Virus record (IMG/VR): IMGVR_UViG_3300046009_003881
Span: 1 to 58,222 of that record
DNA length: 58,222 bases
Strand: one strand, 5' to 3'
Source: a virus
Taxonomy: Duplodnaviria > Caudoviricetes
Positions 18,883 through 52,641 of the stretch are shown here, piece by piece. The notes under the pieces were generated by a model. That model was not told the origin of the DNA, made no database searches, and saw only the letters and a list, made by a program, of their open reading frames with translations. Numbering within the stretch: the first letter of the stretch is position 1; each line of letters starts with the position of its first letter. The position numbers and the translations under genes are program-made.

Positions 18883-18890
18883 TAACTTTG
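18883..18890 (+). promoter_or_regulatory. Promoter -7 box TAACTTTG for scaffold-capsid genes
   Basis: TAnnTTTG 15 nt before ATG 18906. Confidence 0.55.
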
Positions 18891-18905
18891 CATAAATCAA
18901 ATCAA

Positions 18906-20012
18906 ATGGAAATTAAAGTAAAAGACCTAGGTTCTATCGAAGAGAAAGGATCTCAACAGATTGAGAAGGAGTTGCTAGATAAGCACCAACAGAGCATTGA
19001 AGGCAACAAGAGCAATGAGGGTAATGAAGGTAATGATGGTAATCAAAACCAAGATCCTCCTGCTGATCCTCCTGCTGAGGTAGAACTAAAGGACGAAGAC
19101 GTTCTTTCATTTATTGGAAAAAGATACAACAAGCAAATCAGTTCACTAGATGATCTGATGGCTACAAAGGAAGAGGAAGGTCCACTTCCCGAAGACGTTG
19201 CATCTTTCTTGAAATATAAAAAAGAGACTGGTCGTGGAATCGAGGACTATATCAAGTTGAATAAGGACTACGATAAAATGGACGAGGACTCTTTATTGAA
19301 GAGTTATATCCAATCAACTCAGGATGGTTTAGATGATGACGATGTAGATGTGCTTATGGAAGAGTACAGCTATGACGAAGATCTAGACACAGAGTCTGAG
19401 ATGAAGAAGAAAAAACTAGTGAAGAAAAAAGCTATTGCAGAAGCTAAGAAGTTTTTCGAAGATCAAAAGAGTAAGTACACCACACGACTTGAGTCAAGTC
19501 AATCAGGTCTTGCTCCGGAGGAAGAAGAAGACTTCAAGGCTTACAAGCAATACATTTCAACGTCAAAAGACATTGATACCGAAAACAAGCGTAAGAGCGA
19601 GTGGTTTACAAAGAAGACTGAAGAGTTGTTTAGTACAGAGTTCAAAGGTTTTGAGTTTGACCTAAACAATAAGAAGTTCAATTTTACACCTGCCGATGCT
19701 GCTGAATTAAAGAAGTCGCAATCAAACCCATTTAACTTTATCAATAAGTACTTGGATGAGAACGGGATGATTAAGGATGCTGTAGGTTACCATAAGTCTT
19801 TGGCAATAGCAATGAACCCTGAAAAGTTTGCCAAGTTCTTTTATGAACAAGGTATGGCTGATAGCGTTGACGATCTCGACAAGCGGATGAAGAATGTAAA
19901 TATGTCCGAGCGTAGAAGTCCAGAGGCTATGAATAAAGGGGGAATGCAAATCCGATCGGTAGACAATGACTCAGGTCGTGGTCTCAAGATCAAAAGCATA
20001 AAAAAAATATAA
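18906..20012 (+). CDS. Capsid scaffolding protein (putative, 368 aa)
   Basis: Acidic, helical, between portal and capsid genes; FAKFFYEQG motif. Confidence 0.75.
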   Translation: MEIKVKDLGSIEEKGSQQIEKELLDKHQQSIEGNKSNEGNEGNDGNQNQDPPADPPAEVELKDEDVLSFIGKRYNKQISSLDDLMATKEEEGPLPEDVASFLKYKKETGRGIEDYIKLNKDYDKMDEDSLLKSYIQSTQDGLDDDDVDVLMEEYSYDEDLDTESEMKKKKLVKKKAIAEAKKFFEDQKSKYTTRLESSQSGLAPEEEEDFKAYKQYISTSKDIDTENKRKSEWFTKKTEELFSTEFKGFEFDLNNKKFNFTPADAAELKKSQSNPFNFINKYLDENGMIKDAVGYHKSLAIAMNPEKFAKFFYEQGMADSVDDLDKRMKNVNMSERRSPEAMNKGGMQIRSVDNDSGRGLKIKSIKKI

Positions 20013-29565: not shown

Positions 29566-30366
29566 ATGGAATATACTCTAACCTATAGCGAACCCGTTTC
29601 AGGATGGGTTTCATTCTACTCATTCATTCCCGACTTTATGATTGGAATGAACAACCACTTCTATTCATTCAAGAGCGGCAATCTTTATAAGCACAGCGTG
29701 AATGCAACTAGAAACAATTTCTATGGAGAGCAGTACAACTCTATACTGAAGAGTGTATTCAATAACGCTCCACTAGAGAACAAGTTGTTCAAGACAATTA
29801 ACCTAGAGGGTGATGCCGCTTGGAGCGCACTGATGGAGACTGATATTCAGAACACTGGTTTTGTTGAACTAGCTTGGTTCGAGAAGAAAGAGAACTCGTT
29901 CTATGCGTTTGTCAGAAACTCAGGCGATGTGCCTGCCCTTGCCAATCAGTATCCACTTAGATCACTGAATGGAATTGGAAGAAGCACCGCTGTGTCCGGA
30001 CCAAACACGGCTCAGGTAATAGACTTCTCAATTGCGCCACTCGTATCAATTGGCAGCATAGTAAGCGTTGGTGACTACCTTTACTTTGCAACACCACCGT
30101 ACAACAACCCTATTCTTGCAGGGCAGATCACTGCTATAAATGTTGACTATCCATCATCGACAAACAATATAGTTGTTGATGCTACAATCCCTGGAGCTAC
30201 GTACCCAGTTCCTATACAGGACGCATACTTCTTATTCATAAAGAACTCAGTGGCAGAATCACACGGTGTACTTGGACACTACTGTGTGTTCACGTTAGAG
30301 AACGACTCTACCTCAAAAGTTGAATTGTTCTCAGCGGAGTCTGAGGTGATGAAGAGTTATCCGTAG
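29566..30366 (+). CDS. Tail stabilisation/nozzle protein, C-terminal part (266 aa)
   Basis: TLTYSE...GWVSFYSFIP, KLFKTINLEG, ELFSA motifs. Confidence 0.65.
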   Translation: MEYTLTYSEPVSGWVSFYSFIPDFMIGMNNHFYSFKSGNLYKHSVNATRNNFYGEQYNSILKSVFNNAPLENKLFKTINLEGDAAWSALMETDIQNTGFVELAWFEKKENSFYAFVRNSGDVPALANQYPLRSLNGIGRSTAVSGPNTAQVIDFSIAPLVSIGSIVSVGDYLYFATPPYNNPILAGQITAINVDYPSSTNNIVVDATIPGATYPVPIQDAYFLFIKNSVAESHGVLGHYCVFTLENDSTSKVELFSAESEVMKSYP

Positions 30367-33351: not shown

Positions 33352-36300
33352 ATGGACGAAAAGATTGTAAAGTATTACGAGTACCTTAAGTCAAAAGGAT
33401 TAGATGTTCCTCCGACAGTGGAGCAGTTTCAGAGTACTCTTCAAGATAAAGCTAGTAGCGATAAGTACTATGCTTATCTTCAAAACAAGAAGGCATCTAT
33501 GCCTAATCTTGACATTGCACCGGATGCGAACTCGTTCTATAATACATTAAAAAAAAAAGAAGAGCAAGCTCCGCAAGCACAACCACAAAGCCAACAAGGT
33601 CAAGAACAACCGCAAAGCGGTATGGCTTCACCTTCGGCAGCACCTTTATCGGTATCGAGGTACGGAGGTCAAGGTAGGTATGCAGGTGGCTTAACAGCAG
33701 AGAACATTGACCAATTTACATTCGCTCTTGACCAACAGAGACAAAGTATTCAGCAAGGGCAACAAGCTTACGATGATCTTCGTGTTATAAATCAAGAGGA
33801 CATAGCTCCAAGGCAAGATGTCCTAACTGTACCTAAGCAAGTTGCTGTTCAAAAAGAACCAAAGAAAACTCTTGTTGTTCCTACAGGAACTGTGTATGAC
33901 TTACCACTTGATGAGTATTCAATAAAGTACTTTGAGAATAAGGCAAATCAAATTGAACAGCAAAGGATAGAGAACGAAAAGCAAAAAGCTCTTACCGCTT
34001 CTAATCTTCTTATATCTCAAGACCCAATATTTAATCAGGATCTTCAGACAATAAACAAGGCGCTTATCGATATGGAGGAAGAAGAAGCTCTTCCAATTCT
34101 TAATGATAAGTTCAGCAAGTACGGGTTCACGTTTGTGAGGTCTGGTATTGGAGATGAAATAACTGTTAGAACTTCTGAAGGTAAAAACTCAGTAGTAATA
34201 AACTTTGATCCGTTTACCGGAATAACAGAAGCGTCTGAAGCGGAAAGACTTCGGTCGTTTATAAAGTCATACGCTCAAAGTCCTGACGTTAAAAAGGATG
34301 AGGACTTTATGGCAAGCGCCATAAGAGCAAAGCAAATAAGAAATAAGGGTAGAGATAATGGAGACGGCACGGTATCAACTGTAATCTTTACATCTTTCGA
34401 AGAAGACGGAAAGTTCAAGGTCATCCCAACCTTATTCCCTAAAGATCCAAACAACTACACCACTAAGAAAGACTCTTGGATGGAGCTTGGATTTGAAGAC
34501 GCATTAAGTACAGCTCGTCAAAGAGGAGAGATATTTGAGTTCAAGACAAAGGAAGAAGCAGAGAGATTTGCTGAAGGAGAGTGGAAGGATATTAACAAGG
34601 CTGATATAGAAGCGGATAATTTCTACAAGTCTAGAGGACTCAACTACTCTAACATCAAGCAAGCAAAGGAAGAATACCTTAAGCTTAGAGATAAGATGGA
34701 CTTCATCGAAGAGCAATTAGCTTTTGAAAGAGGAGACGAGTACATAACTGATGAGAGCCTTCGAAAGAAGTACGCCTTGTTAATGGACGGGGATTTTCTG
34801 ACGGAGGATGTTAAAGCTCAGTACGAGAATCTTAAAAAACAAGAGGAGCAGTTACGTGGGGTCTTGTTTGACTCTGATGTTATGACTGCTATGGAGGACT
34901 TCGATGCGTACGCAGGAAAGAAAAGGGATGAGTCTGCTTCTGAAGCGGCTAAATTAAATAGAGAAGCAACAGTAGCTTTTGATGCGCTTGATAATGCTTC
35001 GCTACAAACACTAGGTGTTAGTATAAATGACTTGACAGCGTTCGTTCCAAAAACTTCAGAACAAAAACAATATGCTGATGCGCTTCTAAAGAAGTACGCT
35101 GAAGTGCAAATAACAAAGGGTATGGCTGCTGATAAGTACTACTTGTCAAAGACTTACTTGGATGCAGCTATAGACAAGGAAGTTAATTACGAGTTCATTG
35201 AAAACTACGATGGATTTATAAACTCATTCAAGTCTGGTCTTGCAAATGGATCTGGTGTAAACCAAATCTTGCTTGCTGCTATTGGAAAGAAGGATGTTGA
35301 AAATCCTGAGGACCTAGCTGAGATAGCTGCTATTGTAGCTGAGTCTCAAAAAGAGATGGCTCAATTATCCGGATACAAATCTAGGGTCTTGAACAGATGG
35401 CAGAACGCTGTCGGTGCAGACGAAGCTATGGCTGTTGTTCTAAATGATCCTGCAGAATGGATGCTAACCCTTGCCTCGTACAGTATCTCTCAGATGCTTC
35501 CGTATGGAAGTTGGATTGTTCCATCGTCAGTAGCTACTGGAGCTGCAATAGGAGCAGGGTATGGAGCTGCAACCGGATCTTTAGCAGCTGGAGTAGGGGC
35601 TATTCCTGGTGCTGCAACAGGCGCAGCAATTGGTGCAACTAAGGGATTTCAAGCAGGTATGGCGCTAACTGGTTTTGCTACAGAATACGGCAACGCTATA
35701 CTTCAAGCCGCTACAGAAAAAGGATACGACCTAACTAATCCTCAGGATGTGGAGGCTGCTCTTCGTGACGCTTCAGTGTGGAAAGAAGGAGGAAGAAGAG
35801 GAACGCTTCGAGGTATTCCAATTGCTGTAGTTGACTATCTATCTGCAGGTCTTGCAGGAAACGTAATGAGAGTTGGGAAGACTGCACCTCTAGCGACAAG
35901 GGCAGCAGCTTACGTAGGAGAAAGGGTTGTGTTTGATACACTAGCAGAGATGACTGGTGAAGCTCTTGCTCAAGTTAGTGAAGGAAGAGATAATATTTCT
36001 TGGGCTGAGATAGTAGAAGAAGGAGCAGGTGGTATGGGAAGCAACACGTCAAACCTTGCTTTCAAGTCTGCTATGAGCGTAAGAAAGAATAAGAACATTA
36101 GCATAGCTAATGACTTGACTGACGTTAGGAATATAGCTACCGAGAGATCCTCTGATGCTAGAATATCCAAGTGGGCAAACAATATGCAGGCTCTTGGACA
36201 GATAGACGAAGACGTTAATCAGCGAATCCAAGAGAACATCTCGTTGAGAAACGAGGCAAAGCAATTGCTCAATATTGGTATTTCAGGAAAGATTGCAAAT

Positions 36301-39300
36301 CGATTGACTGGAAATGTTGATGCCGTTACGACTAGGGTTATGGAGCTTCTTGCTGCTAAAAAGGAATTATCTCTATCTGCAAGTAGAAGGGAGGTGTATA
36401 GGGATAAGATAGCAAGTATCAATAATGAGATTGCTACTATAAGCGAAACGAGAACCATTCCAACTGAAAAGGATATGGTAAACCTAGACGCGATACTTGG
36501 GTATAAAAGAAGTGATGTCAGTGAGTATATGATTGACGGAAGAAGATATACCAAGGAGGAGTTCACTAGAAGGATTACTGGTATGTCAAAGGAGAGACTG
36601 AAGAAGTCTAAGGTACAAGTAAAGGGCGATAATGAACTTATCGCTATGATACAAAATGAAGTAGGAAAACAAATTAATACCACACAGCAAGATGCCGTTC
36701 AAGAGCAAACAGCAAGTGAAGTTTCTTTACAGCCAGAAGCCGGAGTTAGCGAAGAAGTGGCGCAAAGAGAATCCCAAGCAGAATCTGAAGTCGTTACCGA
36801 AGAAGTCGAGCAAGAAAAAGTAAGTGTACTAGATAGTCCTGAGACTATATCTAGAAGCATACTGTCCTTGAATCCGGAGGAGAAGTCTACGGTTACCTTC
36901 TTGAGAGAGGATGGAACAGAGATTGGCATTGATGGAAACGAGACGGAGGTGGCTGACGCTTATGATATAGCTGTCAAGACCAACGAGAACGAAAGGACTA
37001 ATGCTCAGAGAAGTGTCATACAAGCAGTAGAGACATTGCTTGCTGATGAAATTCAAGCGGACCAGCTTGATACTATACTAACTACTTCACAACTGTCAAC
37101 TACTGTTTCTGATCTAGAAGCCGTAGAAGCAAGAAGACAAGAAGCATTAAGTAATATTATCTCTGAAGAATCAACCGAAGAAAACAGAAGACCAAACGGT
37201 AGCATAGGTACACAAGGATTTGATCCAACACAAATGAAGGACTTGATCAAATTTTTAAATAAGAAACTAAACTTAAGTATTGATGAACAATTATTTGAGG
37301 GTGATAAGATAAAGCCGTTGATTGATTTTATTAAGGGCAACAAAAACTTAGTTGAAAAAATAAAACAATACGTAAAAACAGATCCAATAGAGGTTAGCAG
37401 AATGCCTGATGGTTCATTACACTTTAGAGATGGTAATCATAGAGCTAATCTTTTAAATTTAATTGGTTCTAACACATTGCCAACAATAGAATTTGGACAA
37501 AGAAATAAAATTGATGAAATAAACGCTGAGTATGATGCAGAACTAGGCGCGATTAGCCAATCTGATCAAGACACTAGATTCAGACTTGATGCTCAGAAAG
37601 AAGGAAAGGCTGACGAGAAGATTGTAAAGACTATGAAGGCTATGCCTACTGAGGAAAAGCAATTCGTAGAGCCATCGGGTCTTTATGATGAAGTTACTGT
37701 AGATGCTATTGGAGAATCAAAGTCATCTACTAAGGAGCAGGATAGCGCTGATCTAGTGAAGGCACTCGGTCTGAAGTCGATAGATGAACTCAACAAGCGC
37801 ATCGAAGACTTCAATGGAATGCCAGTCATACTTGGTATGTCTGATATCCTTGGGTCCGGAACCTACACCGACTCTATGGGTAACCCGATGAAGGTGAACG
37901 GTGGTATACTCTTCGGTGCGTTCGGTGGTAATACTGATCTAGCTTGGGCTGGCGTACAGAGAAATGGAGCTGAGAATCAAATGAATGAAGCTATCGCTCT
38001 GTACAATAAGAACAAGGAACTGTTCGATAGATTATGGGAGGAAGGTAAATTGCCAATGGGACACGTTCCTATGGTGATTATGAGGATGGGTGATACTGCA
38101 GTAAACTCTAACGAGGCTGCGTTCAGATGGCTTGCCCCATACGTGGCATCGCTTCCAACAAAGAATAGAAAGGATGCGCTCAACTCATTGAAGGATGTTC
38201 TTTCCAAGAAGGTTGACAACGACTCGGCTGCATCTTGGCTTGTTGATTTCAACTCATCAGTAACGAGCGGTGAGTTCTCTACCAAGGAAGAGATTGTAGA
38301 GGCACTAGAGGAGATGCTTGCTAGTGAGGAGACTCAGTCTATCGAGAAGAAAAGAAAGTCGGTAGAGACCGTACTTAATGCAGTAAAGAAAAAGAAGACA
38401 ACGGACGAAGCGGTTGAGTATCTTGAAAACAAGACGGAGAGAATCCTATCATACATTGTACTAAACCACATTAAGAACAACAAGATCACAACTCTTGACG
38501 GTCTTCTTAATAGCGTGGTTGAAGAATCTAATAAGAGAGCCAAGGGCGATAATGCCGCGATGTCTCTTCCGGTTAGATCGTTCGTATTCTCTCTAGTTTA
38601 TTCTAAGGGATCTCCAAAAACTCCAAGCCTAGCGCCAATCAAAGCGCTTATGAACGGAGTTAAGAACTTCAAGTCAGAGTACTTTACTACAGACTTCTTA
38701 TACAACGCCATAGGTGAGCCGTCTATGCTTAAAGCAAAGCAAGGTGACACGGTAGCTGTTGTTGGAATAGATGTGCTTAACCCAGAGGTTAAGGCTACGA
38801 ACCATCCGAACTATGGATTTGGTCCAAAGGGTAGATTGATTGCTACTATAAGTAACCCAACGCAGGGTGTTGAAGTATTCCCTGAGTTCAAGGCTAAGGC
38901 ATCTCGTATATTCAAGAAGACCGCTGGCAAGAAGGCAAGTTATCCGGATCCTGAAAAGGTGGCGGCTCAGGTTGGCGGTGCGTTCTTTGTGGACAAGGCG
39001 TTTAGAGGTGCTAGAATTATGAAGGGGCAGATTGATGATCTCAATTTGCTCATAGGTAAATTGCGATTCGCTTTTCCTAACGTATCCGTAGCTACAACTC
39101 AAGAGGAGTTCGATGAAATCCTCAAGGACGAGACCGTTAGAAAGAGAGTCAAGGAAGGAAAGGTAATCTATGGTGTGACCAAGGGAGGAAAGATCTATAT
39201 CAATCCAAGCGAGCGATCACTAGCTACACCAATACACGAGTTCGGTCACATATGGATCGACTACTTGAGATCAGATGCTTCTGGAAAGAAGGGAACTGAA

Positions 39301-42300
39301 TTATTGAAGAAGGGTTTGTCTTTGGTTGAAGGAACCAAGGAGCATAAAGAAGCTATCAAAAAGTACGGTGATACCGAGCTTGCCAAGGAGGAGGCGCTAG
39401 TTGAGCTTATGGCTACAAAGGGATCTACGATAATCAACTCGGCTAAGAAGGCAGGGTTCTTATCTTGGATGAATGCTACGTTCAAGTTCATCAAGGAGAC
39501 GTTCGTTGCTAACTCAAAGAGTGTAACCTACGATCAGATCAAGACCTTGAGCATAGACGAGTTCATCAACATTGGTCTAGCGGACTTATTCAAGGGGTCT
39601 GAAGTCAGTGCAAAGTTCTCGGCAAGTCAAGCTGAACAAGCGAGTAAGGCGAGACTGTCTGCTGGAAACAACGTCAACTCTATCGCATCGATAATCGAAA
39701 GGGGTAGAGCAAGTGGTATATCCGACAAGGCAATTGCCATCTCATTGACAAGAAGAGGATTCACAGCCGATGAGATAGACGCTGCGTTTAAGGGAGCGAC
39801 AACCACATTGTCAAGGTCAACGCTATCCGAGGAGACTCTCCCTGGGTACGATGCGCTTATGGCAATCGTAAGGGAAGAGGCTAAGAGCGCGATAGAAAAA
39901 GGAAGGACGGAAACAAACGAAGCTCTTGATAGCTTAATTGAGATTATAAAGTCAGAGGATATTTATATTAACGCCACTAATGTTCAGCAGGAACAACTAA
40001 TAAGAGCAGTAAGAAGAGCATTTAAGAAGCGTGAGAAGTCTGCTCCATCTGCGTACACTATTGTAACTGGCATAAGCAATATTAAAAAGATTACTATAGC
40101 TGAAGCTGATCTAATCAAGAAGCAATTGATGGATTACGAGAGGGGTGCTAAGAACGCCTTGAAAGCTTGGACCGCAAAAGGGAAAGCCCTTTCTAATGAA
40201 ATGAGAGAGCTTGCGTCTAAAAAGAAAATAACTCTTATCCAGGCTGCTGTCGTGATGAAGAAGTTTAGCAGAGTGAATATGTTTGATGAAGACTCTGTTG
40301 ATGATTTCATTACCTATATGAAAAAGGTATTCTCTGACGCTGAGTACGCAGATAGAATCAGCAAGCTTTCATCCCTGATTCCAAAGGCAAAGAATAACAT
40401 AGACAAGAAGATTGGTATCGCTAGGAATCTTCAAGCACCATTAAGGAGAATGCTTGCAATCAATCCTAGCTTTGTTCCGGATGATGTGCTTTCTACCTAT
40501 GAAAATGTAGTGAAGATGTTTGCTCAAAGCGGAGCTGTTATTACTCCTGCTGAGAGATCAAGTGTTATAGATGATGTCAATAAGGTGTTGTTATCTGTAG
40601 ACGAAAAGTCAAACAAAATAACAGAGATGTCTATGATACTAGATGAGTTTGAAAACAAAGTCTTTGATGAGAACGGTGTACTAAACTACTCCGAAACAAC
40701 GAAGGCTATGCTAAAGGATGACTTAATCACTGTTGAGGATTATGAGTTTATGCGAGACAACAAGCGAAGCATAAACAAGACTATCAAGGATGCGAATAAG
40801 GTTGTGTCTCAAGCTGATCAAGATGCTAAGGCTGCTAAACAGCAAGAAGAGAAGAAAGCGCTTATTGATTCTATCAAGCGTTCTTCTATCGTGCTATCGG
40901 ATATGTTTAGCGAGGACGAGAAGAAGCTTGGTAAGGATCTCGCTGAACTTATAAAGACAGATGCTATAGAGTCGCTGACTAATAGTGAGCTGAACAATCT
41001 GTACAAGTTGATTCAGACAATCAACAATGGCTATATGCCATCGTATGCATACCGTGTTAAAAGCAAGCTATCTAGTATAATTAATGCTGCACCGGTAACG
41101 CAGGCTATAAGTAAGTCTGGCATTGCTGTAATCTCTAAGGCTGTGGCTGGAGCAAAGAGCTTGTTCTCTAAGAAAAGAGACACGGTTCTACAAGCCATAA
41201 GAAGAGGTACTCTATTAGACATTGACAAGACCCTTGGTAATTTTATGAGCAGACCAATCTTTGATAACATATTCAGAAAGTCTACGCAAGCTCAAGCTAA
41301 ACTGAAAGCAGGAACTAATAGCATTAGGCAAAGAATGGACGATGCGGCAGAAGCTGTGTTAAAATCATTGAACAATAATGGAAATGCTTTTGTTGAATCG
41401 TCGTTCAAGATGTATGCGTATATGATACAGCTTGAGTATGAGTCGAACAAGGGAAGCAAATCCGTTAATCCTGCGTCTAAGTTTATTGATGCTACAGTTG
41501 CAGCTATAAAAAAGGGTAAAACAAAATTCTCCAAGAAGGATACTGCTATCCTTGAGAAAATAAAAAAGGAATACTCTACTAATGGTGAGATTGACATAAA
41601 AAAACTATACGATTCATTCAACTCAGCAGAGAAGAAAGCAATCAGAGTAGCCCAGGCTATTGATAAGTCTATTGTGGATAAGGCTGAGTTTACTGCAGTT
41701 GTAATTCGAGGTGAGAAGTTCACCGCGATTAACAATCACATCCACCTTAACACAATAAAGGAGGATAACAAGAGCGATATAGCTTCTGCGTCTCAAGTCG
41801 TTACTGATTATCAAAACTCAACAAGACCATCATCTAAGTCTATGTCACTTGTGTCTAGAACCGGTGAGGTATCGCCATTGAATTTTGACTTCTACGCTGC
41901 TGTTAAAAAGGGATCTACTAGCGTTCTTGTGGATTACTATATGACTCCTGCTATTAGAGAGGCAAAGCAAACTATCAAACAAGTAGAGAAGAACTTAGAA
42001 GAGAAGCAGGACGGAATAACTGAGGATGAGCAAAAAGTTATTAACGCAATATCTATGGCTTACGATGAAGCTACTGAGAACTTGTTGCTTAATTCTTTTG
42101 TTGATGATTCGATCACGGCTAAAGCTATTAATATCCTATCAAAGAATGGATACCGTGCCGCACTAGCAGGTATACCTAGAGCAACCGCAGAGCTTGCGTC
42201 AAACTTAGCCTACGCTACAATCGTTGATCTAAATGCAATGGCTACAGCGTATAAGTATAGAGATATTATTATGTCTTCAGCTGGTCTTGACGTTATGTTG

Positions 42301-43644
42301 AACTCAGATAGCTTTCAATCAAACAGAGTTTACTCTGGTCAGACGCTTAGTGGAAAATTAATCGATTCCAATCTGCTATCTCAAGTTGCAGGAATGAGTG
42401 ATACCAGAGCGAAGGCTGATGTAGTCAATAGAATGCAGCAGATTTATAATATGACTGCGAAGAAGTACGTGAACAGCGTAGAGTTCATTGCTGATACTCT
42501 TATTTCTACTCCGGATAAAATGATTATCCGTCCAATTTGGTTCGGGTCATTTGCTAACGAGTTCAAGAAAGTGACCGGATCAAATGTAGACTTCGAAAAG
42601 ATTGCTAGTAATGACAAGGCTTATATGGAAAAGTATAAGGATGCTATTGCTAGATCTAGAGAGGTTGCTGATGACGCAAGCGTTATGGCTGGTGCTTCTG
42701 ATAATGCATACACCGGAATATTGAAGGGTGTTATAAAACCTAATCAGAATGCGTTCGCTAGATCAATGAACATCTTCAACAACTATATGACTAGGTTCGT
42801 TACGTATGAATACCTAGCATCTAGAACAGCTATAAACGCACTAGTTGGAAATGGAACTATCTCTCCAATGAGAGGAGCTGCTATACTAGCAGGGGTAACA
42901 TCAAGGATGATGGTGTACACTATGCTTACAAAGGTTCTTGGTGGTACAATGACATCACTTGTTCTTGGCGCTTTAGGATTCGAGTACGACGATGAGGATG
43001 AAGAGAAGACAGCGCTTCAATTGGCTGGTCAGTCAATTGGTTCTGCCCTTACGTCATTGCTAGTTGGTAGGGACTTCGGTAACGTAGCTAGAAATATACT
43101 GAACTACGGTGTCGAGTATGTAAATGCTAACTACCTAGAGGACTTGAGAACTGGAGAGTACGATCCGTATAAGGATAGTATGCAGATGTCTATCATTCCG
43201 CAAGACCCAAGCAAAATGAAGGCTGAGAAGATGATTCAAAGTGTCGCTGGACCGCTTGCTCCTGCTATTGGAACTGGTATTTTTGTTATCAAGAAGATAG
43301 CAGAAGAACCAAAGAAGGAGAAGGAAGCTATCGAGCGAAGTGATATAGAAACAAATGTTATGATTCCGCTTAAGATAGCAGGCACACTCGGACTAGTTCC
43401 ACTGTACAAGGACATCAATAAGGCAGTGAATGACTACACTTATCAGTCGCTCAGAGATGATGACAAGGGTTCTAGCGAACCACCTATGAGCAAGGAGCTG
43501 ATGAAGAAGTACTATCCAGATCTATACAACAAGATGTACAAATCAAATCCTGCAAAGGAGCAGCAAGAGAAGAGGATTAAGGATCGCAAGGAGATGATAA
43601 AGAAAAGAAAGGAAGACGCAATAAAGAGCAAGCTTCGCAGGTAG
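33352..43644 (+). CDS. Giant internal virion/polyvalent protein (3430 aa): glycine-zipper TM region, ParB/Srx-like insert, zincin metallopeptidase domain
   Basis: GxxxG repeats ~35530-35680; DGNHR 37429-37443; HEFGH 39235-39249. Confidence 0.8.
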   Translation: MDEKIVKYYEYLKSKGLDVPPTVEQFQSTLQDKASSDKYYAYLQNKKASMPNLDIAPDANSFYNTLKKKEEQAPQAQPQSQQGQEQPQSGMASPSAAPLSVSRYGGQGRYAGGLTAENIDQFTFALDQQRQSIQQGQQAYDDLRVINQEDIAPRQDVLTVPKQVAVQKEPKKTLVVPTGTVYDLPLDEYSIKYFENKANQIEQQRIENEKQKALTASNLLISQDPIFNQDLQTINKALIDMEEEEALPILNDKFSKYGFTFVRSGIGDEITVRTSEGKNSVVINFDPFTGITEASEAERLRSFIKSYAQSPDVKKDEDFMASAIRAKQIRNKGRDNGDGTVSTVIFTSFEEDGKFKVIPTLFPKDPNNYTTKKDSWMELGFEDALSTARQRGEIFEFKTKEEAERFAEGEWKDINKADIEADNFYKSRGLNYSNIKQAKEEYLKLRDKMDFIEEQLAFERGDEYITDESLRKKYALLMDGDFLTEDVKAQYENLKKQEEQLRGVLFDSDVMTAMEDFDAYAGKKRDESASEAAKLNREATVAFDALDNASLQTLGVSINDLTAFVPKTSEQKQYADALLKKYAEVQITKGMAADKYYLSKTYLDAAIDKEVNYEFIENYDGFINSFKSGLANGSGVNQILLAAIGKKDVENPEDLAEIAAIVAESQKEMAQLSGYKSRVLNRWQNAVGADEAMAVVLNDPAEWMLTLASYSISQMLPYGSWIVPSSVATGAAIGAGYGAATGSLAAGVGAIPGAATGAAIGATKGFQAGMALTGFATEYGNAILQAATEKGYDLTNPQDVEAALRDASVWKEGGRRGTLRGIPIAVVDYLSAGLAGNVMRVGKTAPLATRAAAYVGERVVFDTLAEMTGEALAQVSEGRDNISWAEIVEEGAGGMGSNTSNLAFKSAMSVRKNKNISIANDLTDVRNIATERSSDARISKWANNMQALGQIDEDVNQRIQENISLRNEAKQLLNIGISGKIANRLTGNVDAVTTRVMELLAAKKELSLSASRREVYRDKIASINNEIATISETRTIPTEKDMVNLDAILGYKRSDVSEYMIDGRRYTKEEFTRRITGMSKERLKKSKVQVKGDNELIAMIQNEVGKQINTTQQDAVQEQTASEVSLQPEAGVSEEVAQRESQAESEVVTEEVEQEKVSVLDSPETISRSILSLNPEEKSTVTFLREDGTEIGIDGNETEVADAYDIAVKTNENERTNAQRSVIQAVETLLADEIQADQLDTILTTSQLSTTVSDLEAVEARRQEALSNIISEESTEENRRPNGSIGTQGFDPTQMKDLIKFLNKKLNLSIDEQLFEGDKIKPLIDFIKGNKNLVEKIKQYVKTDPIEVSRMPDGSLHFRDGNHRANLLNLIGSNTLPTIEFGQRNKIDEINAEYDAELGAISQSDQDTRFRLDAQKEGKADEKIVKTMKAMPTEEKQFVEPSGLYDEVTVDAIGESKSSTKEQDSADLVKALGLKSIDELNKRIEDFNGMPVILGMSDILGSGTYTDSMGNPMKVNGGILFGAFGGNTDLAWAGVQRNGAENQMNEAIALYNKNKELFDRLWEEGKLPMGHVPMVIMRMGDTAVNSNEAAFRWLAPYVASLPTKNRKDALNSLKDVLSKKVDNDSAASWLVDFNSSVTSGEFSTKEEIVEALEEMLASEETQSIEKKRKSVETVLNAVKKKKTTDEAVEYLENKTERILSYIVLNHIKNNKITTLDGLLNSVVEESNKRAKGDNAAMSLPVRSFVFSLVYSKGSPKTPSLAPIKALMNGVKNFKSEYFTTDFLYNAIGEPSMLKAKQGDTVAVVGIDVLNPEVKATNHPNYGFGPKGRLIATISNPTQGVEVFPEFKAKASRIFKKTAGKKASYPDPEKVAAQVGGAFFVDKAFRGARIMKGQIDDLNLLIGKLRFAFPNVSVATTQEEFDEILKDETVRKRVKEGKVIYGVTKGGKIYINPSERSLATPIHEFGHIWIDYLRSDASGKKGTELLKKGLSLVEGTKEHKEAIKKYGDTELAKEEALVELMATKGSTIINSAKKAGFLSWMNATFKFIKETFVANSKSVTYDQIKTLSIDEFINIGLADLFKGSEVSAKFSASQAEQASKARLSAGNNVNSIASIIERGRASGISDKAIAISLTRRGFTADEIDAAFKGATTTLSRSTLSEETLPGYDALMAIVREEAKSAIEKGRTETNEALDSLIEIIKSEDIYINATNVQQEQLIRAVRRAFKKREKSAPSAYTIVTGISNIKKITIAEADLIKKQLMDYERGAKNALKAWTAKGKALSNEMRELASKKKITLIQAAVVMKKFSRVNMFDEDSVDDFITYMKKVFSDAEYADRISKLSSLIPKAKNNIDKKIGIARNLQAPLRRMLAINPSFVPDDVLSTYENVVKMFAQSGAVITPAERSSVIDDVNKVLLSVDEKSNKITEMSMILDEFENKVFDENGVLNYSETTKAMLKDDLITVEDYEFMRDNKRSINKTIKDANKVVSQADQDAKAAKQQEEKKALIDSIKRSSIVLSDMFSEDEKKLGKDLAELIKTDAIESLTNSELNNLYKLIQTINNGYMPSYAYRVKSKLSSIINAAPVTQAISKSGIAVISKAVAGAKSLFSKKRDTVLQAIRRGTLLDIDKTLGNFMSRPIFDNIFRKSTQAQAKLKAGTNSIRQRMDDAAEAVLKSLNNNGNAFVESSFKMYAYMIQLEYESNKGSKSVNPASKFIDATVAAIKKGKTKFSKKDTAILEKIKKEYSTNGEIDIKKLYDSFNSAEKKAIRVAQAIDKSIVDKAEFTAVVIRGEKFTAINNHIHLNTIKEDNKSDIASASQVVTDYQNSTRPSSKSMSLVSRTGEVSPLNFDFYAAVKKGSTSVLVDYYMTPAIREAKQTIKQVEKNLEEKQDGITEDEQKVINAISMAYDEATENLLLNSFVDDSITAKAINILSKNGYRAALAGIPRATAELASNLAYATIVDLNAMATAYKYRDIIMSSAGLDVMLNSDSFQSNRVYSGQTLSGKLIDSNLLSQVAGMSDTRAKADVVNRMQQIYNMTAKKYVNSVEFIADTLISTPDKMIIRPIWFGSFANEFKKVTGSNVDFEKIASNDKAYMEKYKDAIARSREVADDASVMAGASDNAYTGILKGVIKPNQNAFARSMNIFNNYMTRFVTYEYLASRTAINALVGNGTISPMRGAAILAGVTSRMMVYTMLTKVLGGTMTSLVLGALGFEYDDEDEEKTALQLAGQSIGSALTSLLVGRDFGNVARNILNYGVEYVNANYLEDLRTGEYDPYKDSMQMSIIPQDPSKMKAEKMIQSVAGPLAPAIGTGIFVIKKIAEEPKKEKEAIERSDIETNVMIPLKIAGTLGLVPLYKDINKAVNDYTYQSLRDDDKGSSEPPMSKELMKKYYPDLYNKMYKSNPAKEQQEKRIKDRKEMIKKRKEDAIKSKLRR
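36692..36823 (+). CDS. Nested +1-frame gene: basic 43-aa MPFKS-type protein
   Basis: MPFKSKQQVKFLYSQKPELAKKWRKENPKQNLKSLPKKSSKKK*; A-rich leader with A at -3. Confidence 0.65.
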   Translation: MPFKSKQQVKFLYSQKPELAKKWRKENPKQNLKSLPKKSSKKK

Positions 43645-51894: not shown

Positions 51895-52641
51895 TTAAAG
51901 CGTTTCGTTGATAAAGTAATTCTCCACATCCTCAGTGGCACTTGCTCCGAAGTACTTCTCGTGTACCTCAACAGCCATACGCACCTTGTCCTCTCCACCC
52001 TTGATGAACTCATCCGAGCAGTGGTAGATGCCGACTTGCTTGGTCACCTTGTCGATGGCATAGAACGCCAGTGGCTTTCCGAACAGTCGTTGGTAGATGT
52101 AAGCTTGGCTGTCGTAGTTGTACTTCTTTGCCGACCATCTGAACGATGCGATGTCTGATGTGGTCTTAAGGTCAATGAGGAAGTCATTGCACTCGATGTC
52201 CGTCTTCCCCTTCCACATACGTCCGCAGATCTCACCGATAGCAGGCTTCTCTACTTGATTGCCATCAGCGTAGATGTCATCAAAGAACTTGATGTTCTTC
52301 TTCATCACTTGCGTCAGCCCAACGATGTTGTCGTACTCGCTCTTGAGCAGAGCAAAGTCTAGGTTGTTGACGGTAACAAACTCCTTGTAGATGTTTGTTG
52401 TTCTCGTGCTACAGTCCACGTACATTGTGTCGGCTGCCTTCTCGGGTTCAAGAAGTAGTTGGTGAAACAATCTCCCCTCAGCGAAGTTCTTATTGTCATC
52501 CCTTGTCTTGCCAAAGAGTTGGGGATTTGAAAGGAGAACCCCAATGTCTGAGTTGGATAGGTAGAACTTACCGATTCCACGGTAGTACTCTGAATCATCC
52601 TTGAGTTGTTCTATGATTCGAGATTTTTGTTCTTCTAGCAT
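51895..52641 (-). CDS. PD-(D/E)XK exonuclease, RecE/ExoVIII-like (248 aa)
   Basis: LSNSD, WKGKTD, IDLKTT, YDSQAYIY motifs. Confidence 0.85.
   Translation of the reverse strand: MLEEQKSRIIEQLKDDSEYYRGIGKFYLSNSDIGVLLSNPQLFGKTRDDNKNFAEGRLFHQLLLEPEKAADTMYVDCSTRTTNIYKEFVTVNNLDFALLKSEYDNIVGLTQVMKKNIKFFDDIYADGNQVEKPAIGEICGRMWKGKTDIECNDFLIDLKTTSDIASFRWSAKKYNYDSQAYIYQRLFGKPLAFYAIDKVTKQVGIYHCSDEFIKGGEDKVRMAVEVHEKYFGASATEDVENYFINETL

What the first reader, a model, noticed from the sequence alone, without database searches (positions are those of the whole stretch)
36692..36823. Hidden overlapping gene: a 43-aa MPFKS-type basic protein nested in the +1 frame of the 3430-aa virion gene
Seen: ATG at 36692 opens MPFKSKQQVKFLYSQKPELAKKWRKENPKQNLKSLPKKSSKKK*, preceded by an A-rich leader (AAAACAAATTAATACCACACAGCAAG) like the other starts in this genome. 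The host frame here is a low-complexity acidic linker (DAVQEQTASEVSLQPEAGVSEEVAQ). From recall, MPFKS..Q...LY...PE.AK.W is a widespread stand-alone small phage protein. Inference: true dual coding, where the linker sequence is dictated by the nested gene. Standard gene callers would miss it.
Basis: partly seen in the sequence, partly recalled or inferred. Interest (0 to 1): 0.75.

Follow-up and report, generated by a model that had tools for sequence, protein, structure and literature searches.

The report
Hidden small gene inside giant phage gene
A 43-residue, very basic protein gene lies hidden in a shifted reading frame inside a 3430-residue phage gene, is conserved across many related phages including a cultured one, and is missed by standard annotation.

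Summary
ATG 36692 to TAA 36823 encodes the 43-aa MPFKS protein in the +1 frame of the 3430-codon ORF 33352-43644. ORF length alone is unremarkable. An HMM built from four stand-alone phage homologues hits only this segment of the window (E 8e-9). All 80 related viral contigs found with the peptide keep an intact, ATG-started copy nested in a giant ORF. Among relatives chosen through a neighbouring gene instead, 42 of 45 assessable loci carry it, 41 of them intact. Variation sits at nested third positions, which are host first positions. The 130-nt island is far more conserved than the flanking giant gene. T is never used where it would create a host-frame stop, unlike in stand-alone homologues. 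Both frames are therefore under selection. The family (about phrog_1375, unknown function, at least 2224 clusters) is an N-terminal two-helix module that usually lies beside portal genes. A syntenic sister clade carries it nested in the gene between portal and capsid. The cultured Flavobacterium phage elemoF has an unannotated copy in its giant gene. Function is inferred only: probably a basic head or virion-associated protein.

The parts
36692..36823 (+). Nested gene: 43-aa basic MPFKS-family protein (ATG 36692, TAA 36821-36823), in the +1 frame of the giant gene. It is the only family member in this 58.2-kb record.
   Evidence: Conservation.
36662..36691 (+). A-rich, G-poor leader upstream of the nested ATG; putative Shine-Dalgarno-independent translation initiation region.
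   Evidence: across 68 unique relatives, A frequency is 0.87/0.74/0.84 at -13/-12/-11 and 0.79 at -3. Mean A over -20..-1 is 0.59, against 0.32 for all 216 ATG triplets of the window's giant gene. This matches the positive determinants A-3, -6, -12, -13 measured in F. johnsoniae (PMC6847099, section 15 read).
33352..43644 (+). Host gene: 3430-aa giant ORF, last gene of the structural module (phrog_32588, unknown function; weak similarity to annotated 'structural protein' of Flavobacterium and Tenacibaculum phages).
36691..36825 (+). Host codons 1114-1158: the acidic linker read from the same DNA as the nested gene.
   Evidence: translation. T is avoided where it would make a host stop, and nested third positions are shifted towards G.
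18888..20012 (+). Context only: 374-aa gene between portal and major capsid gene. Its homologue in a syntenic sister clade is the host of the nested MPFKS gene. Here it carries none.

Best explanation
36692-36823 is a genuine protein-coding gene embedded in the +1 frame of the giant structural-module gene, so the same 132 nt encode two proteins. SHOWN: it belongs to an old, widespread phage family (about phrog_1375). The family's conserved unit is an N-terminal module, M-P-F-K-S..Q..[FY][LM][FYW]...P..A..W....LP.K, followed by a variable, usually lysine-rich tail. The nested frame is under purifying selection in a large clade of aquatic podophages related to Elemovirus. The host frame is kept open and acidic across it. 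INFERRED: the small gene is the older one. The giant gene's acidic linker is the secondary reading, because lysine codons AAR read as GAA/CAA/AAA one base earlier. The small protein is started independently at its conserved ATG on the giant gene's mRNA, using an A-rich leader suited to Bacteroidota ribosomes. Least certain, about 0.3: the product is a head or virion-associated protein. Its predicted two-helix hairpin would dock on a head-assembly partner and its polybasic tail would bind DNA or an acidic partner. The basis is that the family sits beside portal genes and is sometimes fused in frame to the gene between portal and capsid.
For: Homology: (E 8e-9 with a model built only from stand-alone genes; single hit). 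P0001 carries all the invariant or nearly invariant residues, M1 P2 F3 S5 Q8 P17 A20 W23 L35 P36; 26 of 82 family members match phrog_1375; 131 of the top 150 matches begin at residue 1 of the protein.

Conservation: 80 of 80 loci intact, nested, ATG-started (two begin MFKS)., set chosen through neighbour gene p266: of 45 loci with at least 9 kb downstream, 42 carry it and 41 are intact.

Selection on the nested frame: entropy at nested codon positions 1/2/3 is 0.43/0.225/0.865, against 1.4-2.0 just upstream; host position 3 minus position 1 is -0.45 to -0.69 over most of the overlap, against about 0 to +0.28 in the flanks; 686 differences are nested-silent and host-changing, 114 the reverse, 351 change both; flanking giant protein is 10-18% identical in 27 of 29 relatives (44 and 48% in the other two), against 70-98% for the nested protein.

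Selection on the host frame: T at host-stop-creating sites is 0 of 844, against 69 of 706 elsewhere; same in the sister clade (0 of 265 against 44 of 330), while stand-alone homologues use T freely (160 of 342 against 170 of 360).

Initiation.

Fold: pLDDT 83, helices 6-15 and 17-26.

Context: portal-adjacent; L139, in-frame N-terminus of the gene between portal and capsid.
Against: There is no direct evidence of translation. No RNA or proteome data could be reached. No family member has a known function. The gene is dispensable in some relatives: 3 of 45 assessable loci lack it, and one 100%-complete genome (G007) has no family member at E<=0.1. One locus (L201) has TAG at the otherwise invariant Q30. 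The loci are phylogenetically related, so the Fisher P values overstate independence. The labels 'virion' and 'scaffold' rest on gene position and on depositors' annotations.
Confidence: 0.85

Rival explanations
1. Chance ORF. An acidic GAA/GAG-rich linker automatically reads as a lysine-rich, stop-poor +1 frame, and the MPFKS resemblance is coincidental.
For:: 7 same-strand alternative-frame ORFs of 40 aa or more lie in the gene, so the length is ordinary; the +1 frame stays open in 2551 of 20000 host-synonymous shuffles; phrog_1375 reaches only E 0.02 for the window protein alone.
Against: for the specific similarity, which includes the non-low-complexity N-terminal half and is anchored at Met1. 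for conservation. for the codon-position pattern.
Confidence: 0.02
2. The conserved island is a nucleic-acid element (packaging, promoter or RNA structure) or a constrained piece of the giant protein, not a second protein.
For:: the island is far more conserved than its flanks at all three codon positions.
Against: Variation is periodic in the nested frame, with nested third positions most variable. 686 of 1151 differences are silent in the nested frame. Replacements are conservative: F/Y, K/R, E/Q. The same protein exists as a stand-alone gene elsewhere.
Confidence: 0.03
3. The peptide is not started at its own ATG. It is appended to a truncated N-terminal part of the giant protein by +1 ribosomal frameshifting.
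For:: one database protein (P0019, 1075 aa) carries the MPFKS peptide in frame at its C-terminus after a long upstream part.
Against:: in all 80 loci a nested-frame stop lies 0-24 codons upstream of the ATG, and immediately before it in 2. ATG is kept in 81 of 81; family matches begin at residue 1 in 131 of 150; the leader has the composition of an initiation region. P0019 is a single record without retrievable context and may hold an indel.
Confidence: 0.04
4. The nested gene is real, but the giant ORF is not read through it. Two separate genes flank the small gene, and the open host frame is incidental.
For:: 4 loci have the giant ORF starting or ending within 1.5-1.8 kb of the small gene (L047, L073, L076, L078); in L201 the giant gene is in three pieces.
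Against: The host frame is open across the overlap in 80 of 80 loci and 46 of 46. T at stop-creating sites is 0 of 844 and 0 of 265, against 47% (160 of 342) in stand-alone homologues. Nested third positions are shifted to G>C>A>>T (1831/792/653/69), which gives Glu/Ala/Val/Gly/Gln in the host.
Confidence: 0.03

Closest known systems
Lambda Rz/Rz1 (two-component spanin genes; embedded architecture)
   Same: A small gene lies wholly inside a larger one on the same strand in the +1 frame. Homologues elsewhere occur as separate genes. Gene callers miss the embedded partner. (PMC6139136, passages read.)
   Different: It is not a spanin: no Cys or lipoprotein signal, and it is not in a lysis cassette. 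Here one small-gene family is embedded in two different host genes in sister clades. Whether the two products interact, as Rz and Rz1 do, is untested.
phrog_1375 (PHROGs, unknown function): the stand-alone MPFKS small phage proteins
   Same: Same N-terminal motif, length and basic tail. 26 of 82 aligned relatives match at E<=1e-3. BFVD holds 44-aa uncharacterised members with 40-51% identity.
   Different: The window protein alone reaches only E 0.02. It is nested rather than free-standing.
Overlapping genes of phiX174-type phages and viral overprinting in general
   Same: Dual coding in a compact viral genome. Only the search listing and abstract starts were seen for PMC8227390, PMC3494269 and bioRxiv 10.1101/2020.06.10.143693.
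   Different: In classical overprinting the embedded frame is the new gene. Here the embedded gene has the wide distribution and the host's linker looks like the derived reading (inference).
Small basic internal or DNA-binding head proteins (e.g. phiX174 J) and the helix-turn-helix coat-binding domain of P22 scaffolding protein (both recalled, not from any call)
   Same: Size, strong positive charge (15 K+R, 2 D+E), predicted two-helix hairpin, head-module location.
   Different: No sequence or fold match to any solved structure. This is a functional analogy only.
Pfam DUF3008
   Same: The ESM Atlas lists a cluster with 15% DUF3008 members at score 0.86. This is only a lead.
   Different: The Pfam scan of the protein at E<=10 finds nothing.

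Membership tests
MPFKS small-protein family (about phrog_1375) | Conserved N-terminal motif anchored at Met1 (M1 P2 F3 S5 Q8 P17 A20 W23 L35 P36) | tested here: met
   (82-sequence alignment; P0001 has every invariant or nearly invariant residue); 131 of the top 150 matches start at residue 1.
MPFKS small-protein family (about phrog_1375) | Significant profile match with a model not built from the nested clade | tested here: met
   E 8e-9, 32.4 bits, a unique hit among 1600 segments; phrog_1375 alone gives only E 0.02; 26 of 82 relatives match phrog_1375.
Embedded (Rz1-in-Rz type) overlapping gene pair | Small ORF wholly inside a larger same-strand ORF in another frame | tested here: met
Embedded (Rz1-in-Rz type) overlapping gene pair | Both reading frames under selection | tested here: met
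   Nested frame. Host frame: with stand-alone homologues as control.
Embedded (Rz1-in-Rz type) overlapping gene pair | Both products are made | not testable with these tools
   No RNA run was listed and no proteome data were available.
o-spanin (Rz1-like) | Lipoprotein signal with lipobox Cys; lysis-cassette location | tested here: not met
   The 43-aa sequence has no Cys. The gene lies in the structural module.
Programmed-frameshift extension | Nested frame open upstream into the host frame, with no need for its own start | tested here: not met
   a stop lies 0-24 codons upstream in 80 of 80 loci. ATG in 81 of 81.
Pfam DUF3008 | Match to the Pfam model | tested here: not met
   0 families at E<=10.

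The most novel reading that the evidence does not exclude
This small gene may be pre-adapted to being engulfed. Its lysine-rich coding sequence reads one base earlier as a stop-free acidic linker. Neighbouring genes could therefore extend or fuse across it repeatedly, once into the gene between portal and capsid and once or more into the giant gene. This would be a route by which phage structural genes grow into giants. The basic hairpin (net about +13) and the acidic linker (net about -11) come from the same DNA. They may then bind each other, as Rz and Rz1 do, coupling the small protein to the giant virion protein.
Probability: 0.3. Interest if true: 0.8.

Novelty: new member of a known kind. 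Interest (0 to 1): 0.7.

Why it matters
The best-conserved 130 nt of a fast-evolving giant phage gene is a second, unannotated gene. It is missing from GenBank and RefSeq annotation of MW202828.1 and of the cultured Flavobacterium phage elemoF. Analyses of giant phage proteins, of small phage proteins and of selection in such linkers therefore all misread this region. It also gives a clean natural case with built-in controls: stand-alone, in-frame-fused and nested versions of one family, in two host genes. These can be used to study how overlapping genes arise and how each frame constrains the other. It offers a cultivable system for finding the function of a family with at least 2224 sequence clusters.

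Tried and rejected
Pfam on the peptide, and on 8 relatives, fusions and host proteins, found nothing. PHROGs on the same 8 found nothing at 1e-3. Pfam on 10 long fusion proteins found only DUF6321, in 3 of 10.

The PDB sequence profile search found no credible hit. Foldseek against PDB gave one meaningless row. BFVD returned only uncharacterised family members. The ESM Atlas returned only 'hypothetical protein' clusters.

The earlier-findings look-up showed nothing. Complex prediction of the small protein with the major capsid protein gave no answer, score 0.00. No RNA holder was listed for the stretch.

blastn of the region against the phage collection found no match. tblastn with a stand-alone member found only 2 records; the low-complexity filter was on.

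I tested whether the giant gene's C-part descends from the body of long MPFKS fusion proteins. P0079 against the giant protein showed no similarity, so I rejected this.

A single-protein scan with a giant-gene fragment found no relatives. The fragment's family is too divergent for pattern search, so I used neighbour gene p266 instead.

Reading TAG as Gln in L201 does not rejoin its fragmented giant gene, because the pieces lie in different frames.

Literature searches for the motif, for nested or overlapping phage genes and for the elemo phages found nothing on this gene. One paper holding the string 'MPFKS' (PMC12919940) was not opened. PMC7077304 was searched for terms and proved to be about other phages. 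Supplements were not seen. The first MAFFT run timed out and was repeated with a faster mode.
Full report
OBSERVATION. The window holds ATG at 36692 and TAA at 36821-36823. The translation is MPFKSKQQVKFLYSQKPELAKKWRKENPKQNLKSLPKKSSKKK, 43 aa. The ORF lies in the +1 frame of ORF 33352..43644 (3430 aa). It starts at host codon 1114, where the host reads the acidic stretch DAVQEQTASEVSLQPEAGVSEEVAQRESQAESEVVTEEVEQEK. The ORF's length means nothing by itself. Seven same-strand alternative-frame ORFs of 40 aa or more lie in this gene. An acidic GAA-rich linker also reads as lysines one base later. The finding therefore depends on homology and conservation.

THE FAMILY IS REAL. tblastn of the peptide against 50,697 phage records gave 8 weak hits. 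All began at query residue 1. In the four I opened, the hit is a tiny ORF starting at Met1: C75C1 34 aa, S-CBS2 36 aa, 023Pt_psg01 39 aa, P-RSP2 40 aa. These ORFs carry M-P-F-[KV]-S at the start, then Q8, L-Y at 12-13, P17 and A20, with a lysine-rich tail (alignment). Only one of the four is annotated.

An HMM built from these four alone hits exactly one of the window's 1600 six-frame segments, 36665-36820. The hit has E 8e-9 and 32.4 bits; the next best has E 2.5. I made 20,000 versions of the host segment that keep the giant protein but redraw synonymous codons. None reaches 32.4 bits (maximum 30.8), and only 2551 keep the +1 frame open.

A profile search of 1.84 billion representatives found 2224 clusters at E<=1e-3. 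In 131 of the top 150, the match starts at residue 1 of a protein of 40 to 1016 aa. In an 82-sequence alignment, M1, S5 and Q8 are invariant. P2, F3, P17, A20, W23, L35 and P36 are nearly so, and the window protein has all of them. 26 of the 82 match phrog_1375, whose function is unknown. The window protein alone reaches E 0.02. Pfam has nothing. AlphaFold2 with this alignment predicts two helices, 6-15 and 17-26, at pLDDT 83. No solved structure resembles it. BFVD returns only uncharacterised 44-aa phage proteins.

CONSERVATION INSIDE GIANT GENES. A pattern scan of IMG/VR with the close homologues confirmed 351 candidate loci and kept the best 80. In 80 of 80 the small ORF is intact (41-66 aa). 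In 80 of 80 it lies in the +1 frame of an ORF of 762 to 4205 codons, counted stop to stop; the shortest are cut by contig ends. All 81 copies, including the window's, start with ATG. Two have lost Pro2 and begin MFKS. A nested-frame stop lies 0-24 codons upstream of the ATG in every locus.

That set was chosen through the peptide itself. I therefore repeated the test with loci chosen through a neighbouring gene, p266 (window 29566-30366). The scan confirmed 585 of 599 stretches and kept 80. Of the 45 loci with at least 9 kb downstream, 40 carry a nested MPFKS ORF by the strict model. Two more (L174, L175) carry a Cys-containing variant found with the broader model. Three (L209, L220, L239) have none. 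Six further copies were found in shorter loci, and all 46 strict-model copies are nested. One copy (L201) has TAG at the otherwise invariant Q30, in a record whose giant gene is in three frames. One relative that lacks the gene is a 100%-complete genome with terminal repeats (G007). The gene is therefore widespread but dispensable.

Two GenBank/RefSeq genomes carry unannotated nested copies:
- MW202828.1: 43 aa inside a 3859-aa gene that is only 27-32% identical to the window's.
- The cultured Flavobacterium phage vB_FspP_elemoF_6-3D, NC_055853.1: 42 aa at 52379-52507, in the +1 frame of the 3694-aa 'structural protein' KNV11_gp18.

WHICH FRAME IS SELECTED. I aligned the loci without gaps, anchored on the ATG (76 unique rows). 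Entropy is 1.4-2.0 bits per site at most positions upstream of the ATG and falls abruptly at it. Over codons 1-36 it is 0.43/0.225/0.865 at nested positions 1/2/3. Nested position 3 is host position 1, and nested position 2 is host position 3.

I then made a codon alignment guided by the host protein over -1500..+1800. It used 68 of 82 loci; 10 were too short and 4 had a host stop in range; 66 rows were unique. In the flanks, entropy at host positions 1/2/3 is about 1.5/1.4/1.7, with position 3 minus position 1 between about 0 and +0.28. In the windows within the overlap it is 0.8-1.1/0.3-0.6/0.24-0.41, with the difference -0.45 to -0.69; windows straddling its edges are intermediate.

I classified 1151 single-base differences from the consensus (73 unique rows; the two MFKS loci were left out). 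Of these, 686 are silent in the nested frame and change the host protein. 114 are the reverse, and 351 change both. The 500 host residues upstream are 10-18% identical to the window's in 27 of 29 relatives, and 44% and 48% in the other two. By BLASTP, the giant N-part is detectable in only 18 of 80 loci and the C-part in 42 of 80. The nested protein is 70-98% identical in all 80. The nested frame is the dominant constraint.

THE HOST FRAME IS ALSO SELECTED. A nested codon ending in T followed by AA, AG or GA makes a host-frame stop. Where T would be synonymous, it is used 0 of 844 times at such sites and 69 of 706 times elsewhere (Fisher 4e-25, although the loci are related). Stand-alone homologues are the control: 160 of 342 at such sites against 170 of 360 elsewhere. 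Nested third positions are G 1831, C 792, A 653, T 69. In stand-alone genes they are A 517, T 330, G 326, C 137. G or C at host position 1 gives Glu, Ala, Val, Gly and Gln, which is the acidic linker. So the giant ORF is read through the small gene, and each frame restricts the other.

START OF TRANSLATION (inferred). The 30 nt upstream are hypervariable in sequence but uniform in composition. A frequency is 0.87, 0.74 and 0.84 at -13, -12 and -11. It is 0.60 at -6 and 0.79 at -3. G is nearly absent except at host first positions. Mean A over -20..-1 is 0.59, against 0.32 for all 216 ATG triplets of the window's giant gene. In Flavobacterium johnsoniae, which does not use Shine-Dalgarno sequences, A at -3, -6, -12 and -13 are the measured positive determinants (PMC6847099; abstract and section 15 read). 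The host phylum is inferred from protein similarity to Flavobacterium, Cellulophaga, Tenacibaculum and Maribacter phages and from synteny with Elemovirus. Together with the upstream stops, this favours independent initiation over frameshifting. One database protein (P0019) has the peptide in frame after 1033 upstream residues. I could not retrieve its context.

THE SAME GENE IN OTHER SETTINGS. A scan with the stand-alone type confirmed 576 of 600 stretches and kept 80. The 80 divide as follows:
- 28 free-standing small genes;
- 17 in-frame N-termini of proteins of 100 aa or more;
- 33 nested copies;
- 2 copies cut by contig ends.

Of the nested ones, 32 lie in the first 36-77 codons (12 hosts examined) of a gene of roughly 400-430 codons where complete. 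This gene sits between portal and major capsid gene in a clade fully syntenic with the window. Identities to the window are: terminase 49-68%, portal 42-57%, this gene 33-40%, and capsid 38-58%. That clade shows the same signatures: entropy 0.343/0.277/0.692, and T 0 of 265 against 44 of 330. In L139 the module is the in-frame N-terminus of that same gene. L088 has it nested at codon 1084 of a giant gene homologous to the window's (27% over 740 aa).

The window's own gene between portal and capsid (18888-20012) carries no copy, and the window has a single copy in all. One sister-clade record includes at least 1759 codons of its giant ORF without any copy. The family is thus single-copy per genome where tested. 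It is nested in one of two different host genes in related phages.

Free-standing copies lie beside portal genes in L099, L117 and L113. They lie in the head module in L089, L090 and phage 023Pt_psg01.

WHAT IT DOES. Nothing in any library gives a function. From the anatomy I commit, at about 0.3, to a head or virion-associated role. The conserved hairpin would be a docking module, since it is found alone, on the gene between portal and capsid, and on long proteins. The tail (15 K+R against 2 D+E) would bind DNA or an acidic partner. A subfamily replaces L12 and A20 by a pair of cysteines. This fits contact between the two helices, but I did not measure it on the model.

COMPARISON AND NOVELTY. 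The architecture is that of lambda Rz1 inside Rz. Rz1 is embedded in the +1 frame, has separated homologues elsewhere, and is missed by gene callers (PMC6139136, passages read). This gene is not a spanin: it has no Cys and is not in a lysis cassette. It is a new member of the known kind 'embedded overlapping phage genes'. Two features are unusual. The embedded gene is the widespread, presumably older one. The same family is embedded in two different hosts. My searches of the held literature found no description of it. Supplements and subscription journals were not seen.

VERDICT. Confidence that this is a selected, dual-coding gene is 0.85. The function remains open.

Noticed in passing
window 39235-39249 (giant protein residues 1962-1966): An HEFGH (zincin-like HExxH) motif lies in the giant protein ('PIHEFGHIWIDYL'). 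It is kept as 'LVHEFGHVWQDYL' in the 27-32% identical giant protein of MW202828.1. No Pfam peptidase family was matched.
   Followed up: partly
L201:14317-14445: A nested copy has TAG at the otherwise invariant Q30. The giant gene is split into three pieces in different frames. Reading TAG as Gln does not rejoin them. This is either decay or a poor assembly.
   Followed up: partly
P0019 (database protein, 1075 aa): The MPFKS peptide lies in frame at the C-terminus after 1033 residues of an upstream protein. It could be a natural frame fusion or an indel. The context was not retrievable.
   Followed up: no
L220 / G007 (58,764-nt record with terminal repeats, 100% complete): A close relative (p266 61% identical) has a giant ORF but no MPFKS family member anywhere at E<=0.1. 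The gene can be lost.
   Followed up: yes
L085:9001-9132; L258:8380-8508; L174, L175, L181, L188, L206, L210, L233, L235, L243, L247: A subfamily of the nested protein has two cysteines and a two-residue insertion (..KACYAQNNPKWDC..). It includes the cultured Elemovirus copy.
   Followed up: partly
P0079, P0058, P0095 (long proteins with an N-terminal MPFKS module): Three of the 10 long fusion proteins scanned also carry DUF6321. In phage C75C1, an alternative-frame ORF just downstream of the small gene looks similar by eye. That resemblance was not tested.
   Followed up: no
L001:2998-3105, L002:3001-3111, L004:2980-3123: Stand-alone family members in GenBank phages C75C1, S-CBS2 and P-RSP2 lie in gaps between annotated genes, partly overlapped by neighbouring annotated CDSs, and are themselves unannotated.
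   Followed up: yes
window 1-58222: The window is the whole record: 58,222 nt, CheckV 96% complete, linear. The gene order terminase-portal-374 aa-capsid-...-giant gene is syntenic with Elemovirus.
   Followed up: partly
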